This document shows, one piece after another, positions 13,408 to 58,950 of a stretch of DNA of 64,000 nt; the stretch's first letter is position 1, and each line of letters opens with the position of its first letter. This DNA is from Candidatus Omnitrophota bacterium. GTDB taxonomy: Bacteria > Omnitrophota > Gorgyraeia > Gygaellales > Profunditerraquicolaceae. The stretch covers positions 69,165 through 133,164 of the forward strand of contig JBAZJY010000001.1 of assembly GCA_041651115.1 (NCBI GenBank). The letters run 5' to 3'. Below the pieces are notes generated by a model. It ran no database searches and was not told where the DNA came from. It saw only the letters and a program-made list of their open reading frames with translations. Both the position numbers and the translations under genes were made by a program.

Positions 13408-14607
13408 ATGGTATTTAACACCATTCCTGAAATATTAGAAGACCTGAAAAACGGCAAGATGGTTATTGTTGTTGATGATGCTGACCGGGAAAACGAGGGC
13501 GACCTGGTGATGCCTGCGTCTTTTGCCCGGGCAGAAGACATAAATTTTATGGCTAAGTTCGGCCGCGGCCTGATTTGCGTGCCTATGGAAGAAGAGAGGC
13601 TTGAGGCCCTTGATTTACAGTCAATGCTTGATGAGAAAGGCAGGGATCCTTTTTCCACTGCCTGGGTGATCTCGGTTGATGCGGCAAGCGGCATTACTAC
13701 CGGAATTTCAGCTTATGACCGGGCGCATACGATCGGCGTATTGATAAATCCCCAAAGTAAGCCGGAAAACCTGATTCGGCCGGGGCATGTGTTTCCTTTA
13801 AAAGCGCGCAAGGGCGGAGTATTGGTAAGGGCAGGCCATACCGAAGCAGCCGTGGACATGATGAAGTTGTCCGGTTTATACCCGGCAGGAGTGATCTGTG
13901 AGATTATGAATGAAGACGGCACAATGGCAAGGCTGCCTCAACTCATTGAATTTTCCCGCCGGCATAAACTTAAAATTTGTTCTATTGAAGACCTGATCGG
14001 GTTTCGCCGCCGCTCTGAAAAATTCGTGGAAAAATTATCCGAAACAGTCCTTCCTACGGACAGCGGCACGTTCAGGCTGATCCTATATAAAGACCTTACC
14101 AATGACCAGGAGCACGTTGTCCTGGCTATGGGAGATCTAAGCGGAGAAGGCGTGCTTGTGCGCGTGCATTCGGAATGCCTTACCGGAGACGTATTCGGTT
14201 CGCTGCGCTGTGACTGCGGCAGGCAATTGAAAAAAGCGATGCAAATGATAGAAAAAGAAGGCAAAGGAGTGATCCTTTATATGAATCAGGAAGGCTGCGG
14301 CATCGGGCTGGCGGATAAGATTAAGGCATATGCGCTTCAAGACGGCGGGCTTGATACGGTTGAGGCCAATGAAGCGTTGGGTTATAAGCCGGACTTGAGG
14401 GATTACGGCATAGGCGCCCAGATACTTGTGGACCTCGGCTTAAAAAATATCCGGCTCCTGACAAATAATCCGCGTAAGATCATCGGGCTTGAGGGCTATG
14501 GCCTGAAAGTTGTAGAACGGATGGCGCTGGAAATAGAGCCAAATCCGTCAAATTATAATTATCTAAGGACAAAGAAGGAGAAATTGGGGCATCAGTTAAA
14601 GATATAG
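13408..14607 (+). CDS. ribBA: Bifunctional 3,4-dihydroxy-2-butanone-4-phosphate synthase / GTP cyclohydrolase II
   Basis: A DHBP synthase N-terminal half (VVDDADRENEGDLV) and a GTP cyclohydrolase II C-terminal half (CDCGRQL zinc site). Confidence 0.9.
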   Translation: MVFNTIPEILEDLKNGKMVIVVDDADRENEGDLVMPASFARAEDINFMAKFGRGLICVPMEEERLEALDLQSMLDEKGRDPFSTAWVISVDAASGITTGISAYDRAHTIGVLINPQSKPENLIRPGHVFPLKARKGGVLVRAGHTEAAVDMMKLSGLYPAGVICEIMNEDGTMARLPQLIEFSRRHKLKICSIEDLIGFRRRSEKFVEKLSETVLPTDSGTFRLILYKDLTNDQEHVVLAMGDLSGEGVLVRVHSECLTGDVFGSLRCDCGRQLKKAMQMIEKEGKGVILYMNQEGCGIGLADKIKAYALQDGGLDTVEANEALGYKPDLRDYGIGAQILVDLGLKNIRLLTNNPRKIIGLEGYGLKVVERMALEIEPNPSNYNYLRTKKEKLGHQLKI

Positions 14608-14679
14608 GGACGGTTCTCAGCCAAGGAGAAAAATGTCCCCGAATGGGGACACTTTTCCCTTGGACTGAGAACCGTCCCT
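14606..14679. repeat. 74-bp near-palindromic repeat element, copy 1 (intra-operonic, between ribBA and ribH)
   Basis: AGGGACGGTTCTCAGCCAAGGAGAAAAATGTCCCC GAAT GGGGACACTTTTCCCTTGGACTGAGAACCGTCCCT. An identical 74-bp copy is at 47575-47648. Confidence 0.85.
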
Positions 14680-14695
14680 AAAGAGGGAGGACAAA

Positions 14696-19403: not shown

Positions 19404-22641
<3,238 letters not shown>

Positions 22642-29462: not shown

Positions 29463-29491
29463 TTGACAAAAAGGGGGTGTTTTACTATAAT
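29463..29491 (+). promoter_or_regulatory. Sigma70 promoter (TTGACA-17-TATAAT) of the mraZ / division-cell-wall operon
   Basis: Consensus hexamers at 29463-29468 and 29486-29491. Confidence 0.7.
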
Positions 29492-30939: not shown

Positions 30940-31308
30940 ATGAGGCTATCCAGATTCCTCCTTACGGTTTCTCTGGTTACGTCATTTTCCCTGCTTTACG
31001 TATATCAGCAGTCGGAAATCTTCCGGCTTGCTTACGCGGGGCAGAAGCGGGTAACGCGTTTTGAGGATTTGCTTGATAAGAACGCGGGATTAAAGTACAA
31101 TATAGCCAAGAATGTTTCTTTGACCCGCATCGGCAGTAAAGTTGCCGCTGACCCGGATTTTCAGATGCCTGACAGTTATAGGCTGATCAAGTTATCGCGG
31201 CCGTTGAACGGCCTTAAGGTAACGCAATACGCGCCAAAGAAAGAAACCCTGCTGTCGCGGTTGTTCGGGATAAAGCGGCAGGCTGAAGCAGCACTGAGCC
31301 AACAATAA
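30940..31308 (+). CDS. ftsL: Cell division protein FtsL-like (small bitopic membrane protein)
   Basis: A 122-aa product with one TM helix, in the canonical position between rsmH and ftsI. Its last 17 nt lie inside an inverted repeat. Confidence 0.55.
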   Translation: MRLSRFLLTVSLVTSFSLLYVYQQSEIFRLAYAGQKRVTRFEDLLDKNAGLKYNIAKNVSLTRIGSKVAADPDFQMPDSYRLIKLSRPLNGLKVTQYAPKKETLLSRLFGIKRQAEAALSQQ

Positions 31309-31608
31309 ATAACGGACACATTGGCTGAGCTAATTTTTGAGCGAGACAAGGAACGAGGACGCAGACGTAGTCTTGTGCTACGTCAAGGACGAGTGACGCA
31401 GTCGCAGCCAAAAATTAGCCAGCTCATAGTATAGATTAAGGAGAAGCCCGCCTTTCAGCCGTCTGCGGCGTTGCTCCTCCTCGGCGTAGTACTGAAGACT
31501 ACGCCTTCGTCGTCGCGCCTTGCATACGGCCTAAATTCGGGCTTCCAATGTATCCGTTATTTATTGTTGGCTCAGTGATCAATCCCTGATAACAGGTTCT
31601 ATTCTTAA
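31292..31608. mobile_element. MITE-like 317-bp element bounded by perfect 25-bp terminal inverted repeats, between ftsL and ftsI
   Basis: CACTGAGCCAACAATAAATAACGGA (31292-31316) is the exact reverse complement of 31584-31608. The interior carries several further hairpins and no ORF. Confidence 0.35.
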
Positions 31609-31620
31609 CCTTCACTCATT

Positions 31621-33345
31621 GTGCATATCAGCAATTATCGCCGCAGGACCGAAGCGGTGTTTTTATGTTTCATCCTCTTTTTTCTATTCTGCGCAGGCAG
31701 GCTTTTCTTCATTCAGGTTTTCCGTTCCAATTACCTCGCGATAATCGCCAAAAAACAGCATAACCTTTTCGTGGAATTAGAGCCGCGCCGCGGCACAATA
31801 TACGATTCCAACCTTAAGCCGCTGGCAGTCAACATGCAGGTGGATTCGCTTTTTGCTTGCCCCAACGGGATGTCTTTTAAAGACCGGGAAACCGCGGCAA
31901 AAAAGATCTCCGCGATCTTGGGCCTGAATATTTCCCAGCTCCGGGAAAGGCTTAACCGGAAAAAATATTTTGTCTGGCTCGCCCGCAAGATCACCCCGCA
32001 GCAAAGCGCAGAGATCAGAAAACTTAATATTAAAGGGCTTGATTTTATCAAGGAAAGCAAGCGCTGCTATCCCGACGGTTATCTTGCCAGCCATGTGCTT
32101 GGTTTTGCCGGATTGGATAACACCGGGTTGGAAGGGCTGGAATTATATTATGACTCTTATCTTAAGGGAGAGGCAGGCTGGGCAATGTTTTTGCGCGACG
32201 CGCGCCAGAAGAAGCTTGACCTTTGGGAAAAAATGGTCCTGCCTAAAGATGGTTACGACCTCGTACTTACGATTGATGAGGTGATCCAGTATATTGCCGA
32301 GCGAGAGCTTGATAAAGCTTACCGTAAATATAATGCCAAAGGCGCCAGTATTGTCGTGCTTGATCCGCGCACCGGAGCCGTGCTTGCCTTAGCCAACCGG
32401 CCGACCTATGACCTTAACGAATCTACCAGCGTAAGCCGCGATATCCGGCGTAACCGCCTCATCACCGATATGTTTGAGCCGGGCTCGGTGTTTAAGATCG
32501 TTACCGCTTCCGGGGCGCTTGAAGAAAAAAAAGTAGATGAGAAAGTAAAGATCTTTTGCGAGAACGGCGCTTATAAGGTCTCTTCGCATGTCTTGCATGA
32601 CCACAGGCCGCACGGATGGTTGACCTTCCGCGAGGTGATCGAGCAGTCAAGCAATATCGGCACGTCCAAGGTCGCGCAGATGCTCGGCAATGACCTATTA
32701 TATAAATATATCCGGCTTTTCGGGTTTGGCGCTAAACTCGGCATTGACCTGCCCGGTGAAATATCCGGCGTTGCCAGGCCTCCGCGTTTTTGGTCAAAGG
32801 TATCCGTTGCTACGATACCAATGGGCCATGAGATTGGCGTAACTACGCTTCAGCTTGCCGGCGAGATCTCTATCATTGCCAACGGCGGCCGCTTGATGAA
32901 GCCGTATATTGTAAGCGAAGTGCGCGATAAATTCGGGGAAACCATAAAACAATTTTCCCCGGTTGAGATCAACCGCGTAATGTCTGAGAATACGGCAGAG
33001 AGGATTAAAAAAATACTTGTCGGCGTAATAGAAGAAGGCACAGGCAAGCTTGCGAAGGTCATGGGATTTGATGCTGCCGGTAAGACCGGCACAGCGCAGA
33101 AGCTTGAGCCAAACGGCAGGTATTCGCATAATAAATACGTTGCTTCGTTCATCGGCTTTGCTCCGGCGGACGAGCCGTTGATCGCCGTAGCGGTAACGCT
33201 TGACGAGCCGCACCCATATTATTTCGGAGGCGTTGTGGCTGCCCCGGTATTTAAGGGCGTGGCCAACGATGCGATAAGGTATTTAAAGACAAGACAGTTG
33301 CCTGAAGAAATATCTGTGAGCCATGAAATTAACCCGGTTAATTAA
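31621..33345 (+). CDS. ftsI: Peptidoglycan D,D-transpeptidase FtsI (PBP3)
   Basis: An N-terminal TM helix, a PBP dimerisation domain and transpeptidase motifs (SxxK ... KTGT). GTG start. Confidence 0.85.
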   Translation: MHISNYRRRTEAVFLCFILFFLFCAGRLFFIQVFRSNYLAIIAKKQHNLFVELEPRRGTIYDSNLKPLAVNMQVDSLFACPNGMSFKDRETAAKKISAILGLNISQLRERLNRKKYFVWLARKITPQQSAEIRKLNIKGLDFIKESKRCYPDGYLASHVLGFAGLDNTGLEGLELYYDSYLKGEAGWAMFLRDARQKKLDLWEKMVLPKDGYDLVLTIDEVIQYIAERELDKAYRKYNAKGASIVVLDPRTGAVLALANRPTYDLNESTSVSRDIRRNRLITDMFEPGSVFKIVTASGALEEKKVDEKVKIFCENGAYKVSSHVLHDHRPHGWLTFREVIEQSSNIGTSKVAQMLGNDLLYKYIRLFGFGAKLGIDLPGEISGVARPPRFWSKVSVATIPMGHEIGVTTLQLAGEISIIANGGRLMKPYIVSEVRDKFGETIKQFSPVEINRVMSENTAERIKKILVGVIEEGTGKLAKVMGFDAAGKTGTAQKLEPNGRYSHNKYVASFIGFAPADEPLIAVAVTLDEPHPYYFGGVVAAPVFKGVANDAIRYLKTRQLPEEISVSHEINPVN

Positions 33346-47569: not shown

Positions 47570-47574
47570 GGGGT

Positions 47575-47648
47575 AGGGACGGTTCTCAGCCAAGGAGAAA
47601 AATGTCCCCGAATGGGGACACTTTTCCCTTGGACTGAGAACCGTCCCT
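47575..47648. repeat. 74-bp near-palindromic repeat element, copy 2 (between yggS and proC)
   Basis: Identical over 74/74 nt to 14606-14679. Confidence 0.85.
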
Positions 47649-47658
47649 AACTAAAGAA

Positions 47659-52979: not shown

Positions 52980-53644
52980 GGCCGTTTCAGGTATACTCTT
53001 ACGGCTTGATGCTTGTTTTGGCTTTTATTGCCGCTACGTCGCTTGTGCTGGCAGAAGCAAAACGGCAGAAGCTTGACCATGAAGCGATCTTTAATTTTTT
53101 GTTTACAGCGCTGGTCTGCGGCATAATCGGCAGCCGGCTTTTTTATGTGCTGGAGCACCTTGGTTACTATGTAAAGAATCCGCTGGAGATCATTATGCTG
53201 CAGCAGGGAGGCCTGTCCTGGTTCGGCGGCCTGATGCTGGGCAGCAGCGCGGGAATATGGTATTTAAAGAAGAAGAAGCTCCCGATATACCGGACGCTTG
53301 ATCTGATAGTTCCGTATCTGGCGCTGGCGCAATCTATCGGCAGGATCGGCTGCCTGCTTAACGGCTGTTGTTACGGCAGGACGCCGTTTTTGCCTACGCA
53401 GATGTATGCGTCGCTGGCGCTTCTGGCGATCTACATTATTTTGCGGATGATGCAGGCAAGCCCGAAGCCGCAGGGCACGATATTTTTCTCTTACCTATTG
53501 TTATATTCCATTAAAAGGTTTACCATTGAATTCTGGCGGGAAGATAATCCGGCAGTCTTCTACGGCCTGAGCCTTTTCCAGCTCTTGAGCATCGTCTTAT
53601 TCGTCTTAGCCGCTGCCAAGCTCTGCCTGATCAAGAAAAAATAA
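52946..53644 (+). CDS. lgt: Prolipoprotein diacylglyceryl transferase
   Basis: Lgt family (GPFQVYSYGLMLVLAFIAA ... GRIGCLLNGCCYG). Confidence 0.85.
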   Translation: MEDMYPVICKIGPFQVYSYGLMLVLAFIAATSLVLAEAKRQKLDHEAIFNFLFTALVCGIIGSRLFYVLEHLGYYVKNPLEIIMLQQGGLSWFGGLMLGSSAGIWYLKKKKLPIYRTLDLIVPYLALAQSIGRIGCLLNGCCYGRTPFLPTQMYASLALLAIYIILRMMQASPKPQGTIFFSYLLLYSIKRFTIEFWREDNPAVFYGLSLFQLLSIVLFVLAAAKLCLIKKK

Positions 53645-53698
53645 TAAGTAGGGACAGAGACTACTTTTCTGCAGAAAAGTAGTCTCTGTCCCTACTTA
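53645..53698. repeat. 54-bp perfect palindrome (27-bp arms, no loop) between lgt and rluD
   Basis: TAAGTAGGGACAGAGACTACTTTTCTGC|GCAGAAAAGTAGTCTCTGTCCCTACTTA. It shares TAGGGAC...GTCCCTA termini with the 74-bp element. Confidence 0.8.
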
Positions 53699-53711
53699 TA
53701 CAAGGATATAT

Positions 53712-58895: not shown

Positions 58896-58913
58896 AATAT
58901 TTTACTTTAAAAA

Positions 58914-58950
58914 GGGGACGTTTCCCGGTAGGGAAACGTCCCCTTTTTGT
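58914..58950 (+). terminator. Rho-independent, potentially bidirectional terminator after the giant gene
   Basis: A 13-bp perfect stem (GGGGACGTTTCCC-GGTA-GGGAAACGTCCCC) is flanked by AAAA upstream and TTTTTGTT downstream. Confidence 0.85.

What the first reader, a model, noticed from the sequence alone, without database searches (positions are those of the whole stretch)
31292..31608. MITE-like 317-bp element with perfect 25-bp terminal inverted repeats inside the operon, between ftsL and ftsI
The last 17 nt of ftsL plus 8 nt beyond its stop codon (CACTGAGCCAACAATAAATAACGGA) recur as an exact reverse complement at 31584-31608, just before the ftsI start. These two arms bracket about 270 bp of non-coding DNA. 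That DNA is itself rich in hairpins: CAAAAATTAGCCAGC pairs with GGCTGAGCTAATTTTTG, GACGTAGTCTTGTGCTACGTC folds on itself, and GGCGTAGT-ACTGAAG-ACTACGCC forms a third stem. ftsL and ftsI are normally adjacent or overlapping. A large structured insert here would be co-transcribed with the operon. It could be a miniature transposable element or a regulatory RNA.
Basis: seen in the sequence. Interest (0 to 1): 0.6.

Follow-up and report, generated by a model that had tools for sequence, protein, structure and literature searches.

The report
Hairpin mobile element inside ftsL end
A 286-bp non-coding, hairpin-forming mobile element sits in the last codons of the putative ftsL gene of an Omnitrophota bacterium; I found no published description of its family, which settles at gene junctions inside operons and may be built so that ribosomes can read through it.

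Summary
The inverted repeat is real and perfect (25/25 bp), but the right arm lies at 31553-31577, not 31584-31608. The element is therefore 286 bp (31292-31577), not 317 bp.

It is an insertion, not a native spacer. In 47 of 66 Omnitrophota relatives the ftsL-position protein ends in xT(I/V/L)NP-stop, usually 12-44 nt before ftsI. In the window the orphaned original end, ATC AAT CCC TGA (INP-stop), lies directly after the right arm. The gene now ends in element-encoded LSQQ-stop.

The element belongs to a family. Homologous 270-307-bp copies sit at unrelated gene junctions in other metagenomic genomes: asd|truA, murF|mraY, mraY|murD, hydrogenase small|large subunit, purE|tsaC, aminotransferase|leuC and inside moaA. 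At least 89 ORF clusters read through further copies.

Most ends read TA|CTGAG...CTCAG|TA. The arms diverge between copies yet stay complementary: 40 of 99 pairs show compensatory changes. One orthologous copy pair is 95% identical while its flanking genes are 72-79% identical. Most copies carry an ATG in the left arm and an open frame ending at the right end. The window copy has lost this (ACG, internal TAG).

Verdict: MITE-like element, new family, with unusual structural and translational features. The transposase is unknown, and more than one copy in a single genome was not shown.

The parts
31292..31577 (+). The inserted element, 286 bp: one copy of a palindromic, non-coding repeat family. 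Its orientation is the one in which the purine-rich arm A comes first.
   Evidence: Bounded by the perfect inverted repeat. Absent from the same site in relatives. nhmmer E = 6e-95 to the family profile.
31292..31316 (+). Left arm, perfect 25 bp. It supplies codons L-S-Q-Q and the TAA stop (31306-31308) of the ftsL-position gene. ACG at 31312-31314 stands where other copies have ATG.
   Evidence: (alignment column 22).
31553..31577 (+). Right arm, the exact reverse complement of the left arm. Its last bases plus the flanking A form TGA (31576-31578) in the frame that ends at the element's end in other copies.
31323..31423 (+). Arm A. Basal stem 31323-31339 with 31409-31423. T-poor strands flank the apical hairpin 31364-31384 (GACGTAG...CTACGTC).
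   Evidence: The basal stem covaries across copies: 9 of 18 pairs show compensatory changes.
31443..31545 (+). Arm B. Basal stem 31443-31466 with 31522-31545. A-poor strands flank the apical hairpin 31483-31505 (GGCGTAGT...ACTACGCC). Arm B is roughly the reverse complement of arm A.
31432..31434 (+). TAG in the central loop. It interrupts the frame that is open through the whole element in most other copies.
30940..31308 (+). ftsL-position gene (122 aa, named by synteny only). Homology to relatives stops at residue 117. Residue 118 spans the insertion boundary (its codon, 31291-31293, starts one base before the element). Residues 119-122 and the stop codon come from the element.
31578..31589 (+). 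Orphaned original 3' end of the gene: ATC AAT CCC TGA = I-N-P-stop.
   Evidence: Matches ATT AAT CCC TGA of L003 and the xT(I/V/L)NP-stop tail of 47 of 66 relatives.
31590..31620 (+). Native 31-nt leader of ftsI. It has the same length as in L003 and a similar sequence.
31621..33345 (+). ftsI (PBP dimerisation and transpeptidase domains). GTG start, as in relatives.
29463..29491 (+). Consensus sigma-70-type promoter (TTGACA-17-TATAAT) upstream of mraZ. It is the likely source of the transcript that carries the element.
   Evidence: This is a consensus match only. No promoter-like or terminator-like site was found inside the element.

Best explanation
The feature is one copy of a family of 270-307-bp, non-coding, hairpin-forming mobile elements (MITE-like) of Candidatus Omnitrophota. 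I found no published description of the family.

Shown:
- It is an insertion into the last codons of the ftsL-position gene. The gene now terminates on element sequence (LSQQ-TAA), and the old end (INP-TGA) is stranded behind the right arm.
- Related copies occupy unrelated gene junctions in other genomes.
- The outer stem and the base of one inner arm stay paired through compensatory changes.

Inferred:
- The element inserts at a TA dinucleotide and duplicates it, as IS630/Tc1-mariner-type elements do.
- It is moved in trans by a transposase not yet identified.
- It is co-transcribed with the dcw operon from the promoter upstream of mraZ.
- In the mRNA it folds into a 31-bp outer stem carrying two about 100-nt arms, or alternatively into one long hairpin.

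Family design:
- The left arm carries early stop codons for the upstream gene, followed by an ATG.
- The right end forms a stop codon from the TA plus the flanking base, 0-5 nt before the downstream start codon.
- Ribosomes could therefore read through the element and hand over to the next gene.

The window copy is a decayed member. Its ATG is ACG and it has one in-frame TAG. Its likely effects are limited to a replaced FtsL tail and a large RNA structure ahead of the intact native ftsI leader.
For: Insertion:
- Homology of the ORF to relatives ends at residue 117. 47 of 66 relatives then read xT(I/V/L)NP-stop, and 42 of 66 have a spacer of at most 44 nt.
- The window has ATC AAT CCC TGA plus an L003-like leader immediately after the right arm.

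Family:
- Using the six-frame translation as a protein query found genes extended into other copies.
- DNA identity to the window copy is 84% (L086), 82% (L087), 91% (L085, half copy) and 76% (L088, opposite orientation).
- Further copies are L089, L090, L093, L096 and L099.
- 89 ORF clusters of mostly 88-90 aa read through copies.
- Sites: asd|truA, murF|mraY, mraY|murD, hydrogenase small|large subunit, purE|Sua5-family gene (tsaC), aminotransferase|leuC, upstream of a TPM-domain gene, and inside moaA.

Ends:
- TA|CTGAG...CTCAG|TA in L089, L090, L093 and L099, and at the right ends of L085 and L096.
- Removing the element plus one dinucleotide restores EA(x)INP-stop in the window, ATG CTT AAT TTC AAG (MLNFKLEIEYDG) for truA in L086, a TAATG junction in L096 and TAA-G-ATG in L090. 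These are my readings of the sequences.

Non-coding:
- Reading frames are mosaic between copies.

Structure:
- 95.4% of cells are paired and 40 of 99 pairs show compensatory changes. This compares with 12.4 +/- 2.5 in shuffles (0 of 500 reach the observed value) and 3-5 in slid controls.

Assemblies:
- The element is complete in an ENA contig, and its first 125 nt, up to the contig end, are in an independent Logan contig.
Against: - No second copy in the 64-kb window or in about 745 kb of related loci. More than one copy in a single genome was never shown.
- No transposase or full-length parent element with these ends was found.
- The window copy is flanked by CA...TG and L086/L087 by TG...CA, not TA...TA. 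The duplication is therefore inferred, not seen, at these sites.
- The reconstructed murF|mraY site of L093 does not give a sensible murF stop.
- The arms are less conserved than the core. This is the reverse of what is usual when a transposase reads the terminal repeats.
- Exact-word scans for the arm found nothing real in 185,579 species genomes, in JGI metagenomes or in IMG/VR.
Confidence: 0.8

Rival explanations
1. Host-beneficial 'translational relay'. The family persists at operon junctions because it rebuilds translational coupling. The upstream gene stops in the left arm. Ribosomes restart at the arm's ATG and translate through the element, which melts the hairpin. They terminate at the TA-derived stop, 0-5 nt before the downstream start codon. 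In many copies that start codon follows a GGAG in the right arm. Selection would then act on frame and structure, not on the peptide. This extends the best explanation rather than replacing it.
For: - Of 92 element ORFs, 79 end in the frame that stops at the element's end, against 8 and 3 in the other two frames. This holds although internal frames differ between copies (a/b/c and x/y/z mosaics).
- The distance from the ATG to the right end is a multiple of 3 in the window copy (264), L090 (249), L093 (267), L096 (285) and L099 (264), although the three loops differ in length.
- Downstream ATGs start 1-5 nt after the right end in L085, L090, L093, L096 and L099.
- Upstream genes stop at TAA-ATA-ATG or TAATG in the window copy, L086, L099, L093 and L096.
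- The orthologous copies L086 and L087 are 94.8% identical with no indel and identical arms. The flanking genes are 72-79% identical, with third codon positions at 49%.
- At positions paired in the long-hairpin model, six of the eight changes (five pairs) keep or gain sense-strand pairing; the other two hit positions that are not paired in either copy or lose the pair.
Against: - Almost all copies were found through their ORFs, so openness is ascertained, not measured.
- Stop codons are not depleted relative to dinucleotide shuffles, and 5-10% of shuffles are open full-length.
- The frame bias could reflect one dominant subfamily or gene-caller behaviour.
- G-U does not clearly outnumber A-C mismatches across copies: 42 against 22 in total, or 24 against 22 once two invariant G-U pairs are removed.
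- The window copy itself lacks the ATG and has an in-frame TAG.
- There are no expression data.
Confidence: 0.35
2. A dedicated cis-regulatory RNA structure of the dcw operon that controls ftsI relative to ftsL.
For: - Very stable fold, z = -10.
- Co-oriented with the operon and without a terminator or promoter of its own.
- Many relatives also carry some hairpin in this spacer.
Against: - The sequence is absent from this site in all 66 relatives examined.
- The hairpin inserts of other relatives are unrelated in sequence.
- The same element occurs at junctions of unrelated operons and once in the opposite orientation.
- It destroys the conserved tail of the upstream protein.
- There is no Rfam match.
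Confidence: 0.05
3. A REP/REPIN-type element spread by a RAYT (IS200/IS605-like tyrosine transposase). The two GTAG-containing hairpins would be an inverted REP doublet nested in a longer palindrome.
For: - Both apical hairpins contain GTAG...CTAC.
- REP dimers lie 20-100 bp apart, can fold as one large stem-loop and can sit within longer palindromes. GTAG repeats occur in PVC-group bacteria (PMC3733652).
Against: - GTAG here is paired inside the stem, not a terminal tag.
- GTAG is not invariant. Variants are ATAG in L090, GTAC in L093 and GTAT in L096, each with a compensatory change on the other strand.
- The element has long terminal inverted repeats and TA flanks.
- The units are far longer than the 20-40 bp of REPs.
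- No RAYT gene was seen in any fetched locus table.
Confidence: 0.05
4. A real small protein gene of about 89 aa that is conserved in Omnitrophota. The window copy would be a pseudogene.
For: - 89 ORF clusters of very uniform length (88-90 aa) share the N-terminus M-x-TLAELILERDKERGRRRS.
Against: - After residue 20 the copies use different reading frames of the same conserved DNA (RSTTPRTSDAVAAQNQPA or LALRQGRVTQSQPKISQP; GKPAFRPSAALLLLGV or GEARLSAVCGVAPPRRS). The DNA is conserved, not the protein.
- The sequence is palindromic, and L088 is read through on the other strand.
- None of the 89 element-ORF clusters carries a Pfam domain.
Confidence: 0.03
5. An assembly artefact, that is, a chimeric palindrome created by the assembler.
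For: - Palindromes can be produced by assemblers.
- Several contigs end inside copies (L002, L085).
Against: - The same junction and element sequence are present in an ENA megahit contig of 146 kb, and its first 125 nt are present in an independent Logan assembly of another run.
- Homologous copies appear in JGI, ENA and NCBI assemblies from many samples.
Confidence: 0.01

Closest known systems
Correia elements (CREE/NEMIS) of Neisseria
   Same: - Non-coding, with terminal inverted repeats of about 26 bp.
- TA at both ends.
- Often co-transcribed with neighbouring genes and able to fold into long hairpins.

Class and size come from PMC3184786. The TA target and the cleavage of the hairpin RNA by RNase III are from my own knowledge.
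   Different: - About 104-157 bp, against 270-307 bp here.
- No sequence similarity tested or expected.
- Correia elements carry promoters and IHF sites. None was detected here.
- Correia elements are not known to carry an ATG-to-end open frame or a three-way structure with covarying inner stems.
RUP of Streptococcus pneumoniae and other IS630-derived bacterial MITEs
   Same: - Small non-autonomous element.
- TA duplication, thought to be mobilised in trans by an IS630-family transposase.

My own knowledge; the size of 107 bp is from PMC3184786.
   Different: - RUP has an identified candidate parent IS. None is identified here.
- RUP is much shorter.
- The terminal repeat here begins CTGAG and diverges between copies while remaining paired.
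ERIC/IRU elements of Enterobacteriaceae and Yersinia
   Same: - Imperfect whole-length palindromes located in transcribed intergenic regions of operons.
- Some have TA flanks.
- They change the stability of the flanking mRNA segments (PMC3184786).
   Different: - 127 bp.
- Their effect is described as RNase E-dependent mRNA decay.
- No built-in stop, start and stop layout has been reported.
Rickettsia palindromic elements (RPE)
   Same: - Palindromic mobile elements tolerated inside essential genes because they remain translatable (PMC10969869).
   Different: - RPEs insert in frame and become part of the host protein.
- This family usually terminates the upstream gene and carries its own frame between two genes.
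- In-frame fusion is seen only in special cases: truA in L086/L087, leuC in L088 and the TPM-domain gene in L085.
[quoted passage not shown]
   Same: - Repeats that bring translation signals to the gene next to them (PMC3184786).
   Different: - Those supply a promoter, ribosome-binding site and ATG for the downstream ORF.
- They are not described as junction-filling elements with a through-frame.

Membership tests
MITE (miniature inverted-repeat transposable element) | Terminal inverted repeats | tested here: met
   25/25 bp perfect in the window. Arms of 31-33 bp are present in every complete copy.
MITE (miniature inverted-repeat transposable element) | Small size and no transposase gene | tested here: met
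   Copies are 270-307 bp. The only ORFs are frame-mosaic read-throughs of 79-115 aa with no Pfam domain.
MITE (miniature inverted-repeat transposable element) | Flanking target-site duplication (direct repeat) | tested here: inconclusive
   TA is on both sides in L089, L090, L093 and L099, and on the visible or right side in L085 and L096. It is CA/TG in the window and TG/CA in L086/L087. TA is its own reverse complement, so it cannot be told apart from the tip of the inverted repeat. A 2-bp remainder restores frames in the window, L086, L096 and L090, but not in L093.
MITE (miniature inverted-repeat transposable element) | Copies at different loci, with filled and empty sites between genomes | tested here: met
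   At least 9 distinct insertion sites. Empty ftsL|ftsI sites in 66 relatives and in L093. The window itself is the empty site for the murF|mraY and mraY|murD insertions.
MITE (miniature inverted-repeat transposable element) | Several copies within one genome | not testable with these tools
   One copy in the 64-kb window and one per fetched locus. Contigs that break inside copies (L002, L085) only hint at repetition.
MITE (miniature inverted-repeat transposable element) | A parent insertion sequence or transposase with matching ends | not testable with these tools
   No transposase appears in any fetched locus table. No way was left to scan genomes by DNA.
IS630/Tc1-mariner-derived element | Insertion at TA with TA duplication, and ends bound by a DDE transposase of that family | tested here: inconclusive
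   The TA flanks are as described in the MITE target-site-duplication row. The transposase was not found. The end sequence CTGAG was not compared with known IS630 ends.
REP/REPIN mobilised by RAYT | Stem-loop units of 20-40 bp that end in an unpaired, conserved GTAG tag (PMC3733652) | tested here: not met
   GTAG lies inside an 8-bp stem. It varies (ATAG, GTAC, GTAT) with compensatory changes.
Rickettsia-type palindromic element (RPE) | In-frame insertion that leaves the host ORF continuous | tested here: not met
   The window copy brings a TAA after 4 codons. Most copies stop the upstream gene within 21 nt.
Any Rfam RNA family | Covariance-model match | tested here: not met
   cmscan of 31000-31900 at E up to 10 gave only four weak matches (12-17 bits), all outside the element.
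Locus-specific cis-regulatory RNA of the dcw operon | Conservation at the same locus in relatives | tested here: not met
   Absent in 66 relatives. Other inserts at that spacer are unrelated.

The most novel reading that the evidence does not exclude
The family is a mobile element adapted to, or co-opted by, compact operons. It would be a symmetric cassette with three built-in features:
- Its inverted ends present stop codons plus an ATG on the 5' side, and on the 3' side a stop, in many copies preceded by a Shine-Dalgarno-like GGAG.
- Its T-poor and A-poor stem strands keep the interior largely free of stop codons on both strands.
- Its hairpin hides the downstream start region until a ribosome reads through.

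Such a cassette could sit between translationally coupled genes without breaking the coupling. It would then be kept by host-level purifying selection on nucleotide sequence and frame, but not on the peptide.
Probability: 0.35. Interest if true: 0.8.

Novelty: new variant of a known kind. Interest (0 to 1): 0.6.

Why it matters
- For this genome, an essential-operon gene has had its conserved C-terminal motif replaced by element sequence. A structure of about -139 kcal/mol now sits in the dcw transcript. Annotation pipelines will miss both.
- More generally, the family is widespread in an uncultured phylum with compact genomes. It targets, or survives only at, stop-start junctions inside operons, and it hit the dcw operon at three different junctions in three lineages.
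- It shows covarying stems. At one orthologous site its sequence is conserved more strongly than the neighbouring protein genes. That is not expected of a neutrally decaying selfish insert.
- If the read-through design is real, it would be a new way for a transposable element to neutralise its own polar effects. It would also be a natural part for insulating or coupling genes in synthetic operons.
- The many 88-90-aa 'hypothetical proteins' in public databases that derive from it should be flagged as element read-throughs.

Tried and rejected
- Exact-word scans for the arm. The 22-mer found nothing in genome contigs. The 20-mer found nothing in viral contigs. The 20-mer found two hits in JGI metagenomes, both single arms inside unrelated coding sequence and therefore chance. 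In hindsight the arm was a poor probe, because arms differ between copies and the core would have been better.
- A core 19-mer in IMG/VR gave two chance hits in GC-rich DNA.
- A 1710-aa concatenation of six-frame translations of four copies returned nothing. The candidate list was probably swamped. A single 91-aa ORF then found 89 clusters.
- The listing of cluster members gave no accession numbers or names, so neither taxonomy nor co-occurrence in one assembly could be read.
- Rfam gave nothing relevant.
- A general depletion of stop codons in the element was tested and not found.
- An excess of G-U over A-C mismatches, as a sign of RNA-level selection across all copies, was not significant.
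- Target-site duplications of 3, 4 or 5 bp, and a palindromic target cut in its centre, were checked by eye against the flanks and do not fit.
- I considered that the left arm might be native ftsL sequence copied in inverted form. I rejected this because the native end is still present after the right arm.
- Literature searches for MITEs in Omnitrophota, or for MITEs linked to translational coupling, found nothing relevant. The 2024 review of prokaryotic MITEs does not mention such a role.
Full report
**1. Observation**

The 25-mer CACTGAGCCAACAATAAATAACGGA lies at 31292-31316.
- Allowing three mismatches, these are the only two matches in the window, and shuffles give none.
- The pairing does not extend outward: the flanking bases are G and A.
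- It continues inward imperfectly, as 83-nt arms that are 77% complementary.
- The element is therefore 286 bp.
- As RNA it folds at -138.7 kcal/mol (z = -10.3). As DNA it folds at -78 kcal/mol (z = -9.9).
- No Rfam family matches.

**2. Setting**

The window comes from a Candidatus Omnitrophota genome. RsmH finds 65 or more Omnitrophota metagenome-assembled genomes, the best at 82% identity.
- The same locus is present in an ENA contig of 146 kb.
- Up to the middle of the element, it is also present in an independent Logan contig that ends at window position 31416.
- The gene order is mraZ, rsmH, a 122-aa membrane-anchored ORF in the ftsL position (no Pfam or NCBIfam hit), ftsI, murE, murF, mraY and so on. 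All genes are on the + strand.
- A consensus promoter lies upstream of mraZ. Nothing promoter-like or terminator-like lies in the element.

**3. It is an insertion**

- In tblastn against 66 relatives, homology of the ftsL-position protein stops at residue 117.
- 47 of the relatives then read xT(I/V/L)NP-stop.
- 42 have a spacer of at most 44 nt before the GTG of ftsI.
- L003, the closest relative, reads GCG ATG ACG ATT AAT CCC TGA followed by 31 nt and GTG.
- The window reads GCA G, then the element, then ATC AAT CCC TGA followed by 31 similar nucleotides and GTG.
- So the original end of the gene is stranded behind the right arm, and the gene now ends LSQQ-TAA on element sequence.
- The window copy is unrelated to the hairpin inserts that 11 relatives carry in the same spacer.

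**4. It belongs to a family**

DNA word scans failed. I therefore used the six-frame translation of the element as a protein query and one frame for an exhaustive phmmer search.

These searches found genes whose predicted products run into other copies: a TPM-domain gene, truA (twice), leuC and a truncated moaA. They also found free-standing ORFs.

The fetched DNA shows homologous elements at the following sites:

| Site | Locus |
|---|---|
| asd\|truA | L086, L087 |
| aminotransferase\|leuC, opposite orientation | L088 |
| upstream of the TPM-domain gene; the contig starts inside the element | L085 |
| two further sites | L089, L090 |
| murF\|mraY in another Omnitrophota dcw operon | L093 |
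| NiFe-hydrogenase small\|large subunit | L096 |
| purE\|Sua5-family gene (tsaC) | L099 |
| mraY\|murD (gene table only) | P0019 |

A 91-aa element ORF then retrieved 89 clusters, mostly of 88-90 aa. No extra copy occurs in the window or in about 745 kb of related loci.

**5. Anatomy of the family** (alignment A2, nine copies)

- The core is highly conserved.
- It has two arms of about 100 nt, and each arm has an apical hairpin. The strands of arm A are T-poor. The strands of arm B are A-poor and roughly complementary to arm A.
- The outer 31 bp differ strongly between copies but match within each copy.
- On the RNAalifold consensus, which is a three-way junction, 95.4% of cells pair.
- 40 of 99 pairs show changes on both sides. 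Shuffles give 12.4 +/- 2.5 (0 of 500 reach the observed value), and slid controls give 3-5.
- The compensatory pairs are distributed as follows: 22 of 31 in the outer stem, 9 of 18 in the base of arm A, and 3 of 8 in each apical hairpin.
- The alternative single long hairpin keeps 91.5% pairing between arms A and B. That helix hardly varies, and the model's version of the arm A base pairs in only 67% of cells.
- Both folds are close in energy. The minimum-free-energy fold is the long hairpin for the window and L088, and the three-way junction for L086 and L087.
- G-U and A-C mismatches do not clearly differ, so RNA-level and DNA-level selection cannot be separated on the whole set.

**6. Ends and target**

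- Five copies end TA|CTGAG...CTCAG|TA or a close variant.
- The window has CA...TG, and L086/L087 have TG...CA. In both cases the changes keep the two ends complementary.
- Taking out the element plus one dinucleotide gives the following reconstructions, which are my readings of the sequences:
  - GAA GCA Gxx ATC AAT CCC TGA, in frame, in the window
  - ATG CTT AAT TTC AAG..., a plausible truA start overlapping asd, in L086
  - GAT TAA TG, a TAATG junction, in L096
  - ACA TAA G ATG in L090
- L093 does not reconstruct cleanly against the window's own murF|mraY overlap.
- L099 is ambiguous.
- I read this as a 2-bp TA duplication of the IS630/Tc1-mariner kind. This is not proven, and no transposase was found.

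**7. Translation layout**

- In most copies the left arm reads ...TAAATAATGG.
- Upstream genes stop at one of the two TAA codons (window, L086, L099, L093, L096) or at the TGA of CTGAG (L089, L090).
- An ATG follows.
- In the commonest frame, the frame from that ATG runs to CAG-TAA or CAG-TAG, formed by the right TA plus the next base.
- Downstream ATGs begin 1-5 nt after the right end in L085, L090, L093, L096 and L099.
- The ORFs are not a protein family, because copies switch between reading frames of the same DNA at the three loops.
- Even so, 79 of 92 finish in the frame that stops at the element's end, against 8 and 3 in the other two frames.
- The ATG-to-end length is 249, 264, 264, 267 and 285 nt in five independent copies, although their loop lengths differ.
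- Caveats: the copies were found through ORFs. Stop codons are not depleted overall. 5-10% of shuffles are open full-length.
- The window copy has ACG for ATG and a TAG at 31432-31434, so its frame is broken. Its length (264) and its terminal TGA still fit the pattern.

**8. Constraint**

L086 and L087 carry the same insertion, with the same private arms and the same TG/CA flanks.
- The element is 273/288 identical with no indel, and the first 65 and last 46 nt are identical.
- asd is 79% identical and truA is 72% identical. Third codon positions of truA are 49% identical.
- The high identity is confined to the element plus about 24 nt on each side.
- Five pairs of the long-hairpin model keep or gain sense-strand pairing (C/T opposite G, A to G opposite C, one double change); two further changes at paired columns do not preserve a pair.
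- This points to purifying selection on the sequence in place.
- The alternatives are independent insertion of one subfamily at the same site, or conversion from other copies. These cannot be excluded.

**9. Comparison with known kinds**

- The element meets the MITE criteria of terminal inverted repeats, small size, no transposase and different loci between genomes.
- The target duplication is inconclusive.
- Copy number per genome and the parent element are untested.
- It is not a REP. GTAG is paired and variable, whereas REPs end in a conserved tag (PMC3733652).
- It is not an RPE-type in-frame insert in the window.
- The nearest analogues are Correia, RUP and ERIC elements, and repeats that bring a ribosome-binding site and ATG (PMC3184786; PMC10969869).
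- I found no paper on MITEs in Omnitrophota or on MITEs preserving translational coupling.

**10. Verdict**

The MITE reading is right in kind. The element is a decayed member of a new, widespread, structurally constrained family that lives at operon junctions. The relay hypothesis is my inference. It is attractive but rests on ascertained data.

Noticed in passing
window 14605-14680 and 47574-47649; also L047, L052, L053 and L064 ftsL-ftsI spacers: Two identical 76-bp palindromes (TAGGGACGGTTCTCAGCC...) lie in short gaps between co-directional ORFs. The GGGACGGTTCTC hairpin core recurs in the ftsL-ftsI spacer of several relatives. This looks like a second, REP-like or terminator-like repeat family of Omnitrophota.
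   Followed up: partly
window 53644-53699: A perfect 56-bp palindrome (ATAAGTAGGGACAGAGACTACTTTTCTG and its reverse complement) lies between two co-directional ORFs.
   Followed up: no
window 22127-22160: A heptanucleotide tandem repeat, (AAATTCC) x 4.4, starts right after the ATG of a putative lipoprotein ORF (lipobox LSTGC). The ENA contig of the same locus has one unit fewer, which shifts the frame. This is a candidate phase-variable gene.
   Followed up: partly
ftsL-ftsI spacers of L005, L011, L017, L018/L021, L020/L063, L039, L056, L057: The same spacer carries unrelated structured inserts of 100-290 nt in 11 of 66 relatives. L056 has one long hairpin of about 190 nt, and L005 has a tandemly duplicated unit. 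The site is a hot spot for palindromic DNA.
   Followed up: partly
window 30940-31308: The ORF in the ftsL position has no Pfam or NCBIfam match at E up to 1. Its relatives share a conserved C-terminal xT(I/V/L)NP motif of unknown role.
   Followed up: partly
window 29463-29491: A perfect 12/12 sigma-70 consensus (TTGACA, 17 nt, TATAAT) lies 74 nt upstream of mraZ.
   Followed up: no
L086:6053-7075, L087:1719-2735, L088:10001-11524: In these loci the element separates truA or leuC from any start codon of its own. The gene is read in frame from the element's ATG and gains an extension of about 90 aa.
   Followed up: partly
protein P0011 (ENA ERZ27297570, no DNA available): A moaA-like radical-SAM gene is cut after about 150 residues by a copy of the element. 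A 127-aa ORF follows that may be the rest of the gene.
   Followed up: no
window 58909-58948: An 18-bp perfect hairpin flanked by A and T runs (AAAAAGGGGACGTTTCCC / GGGAAACGTCCCCTTTTT) follows the 1366-aa ORF. It looks like a bidirectional intrinsic terminator.
   Followed up: no
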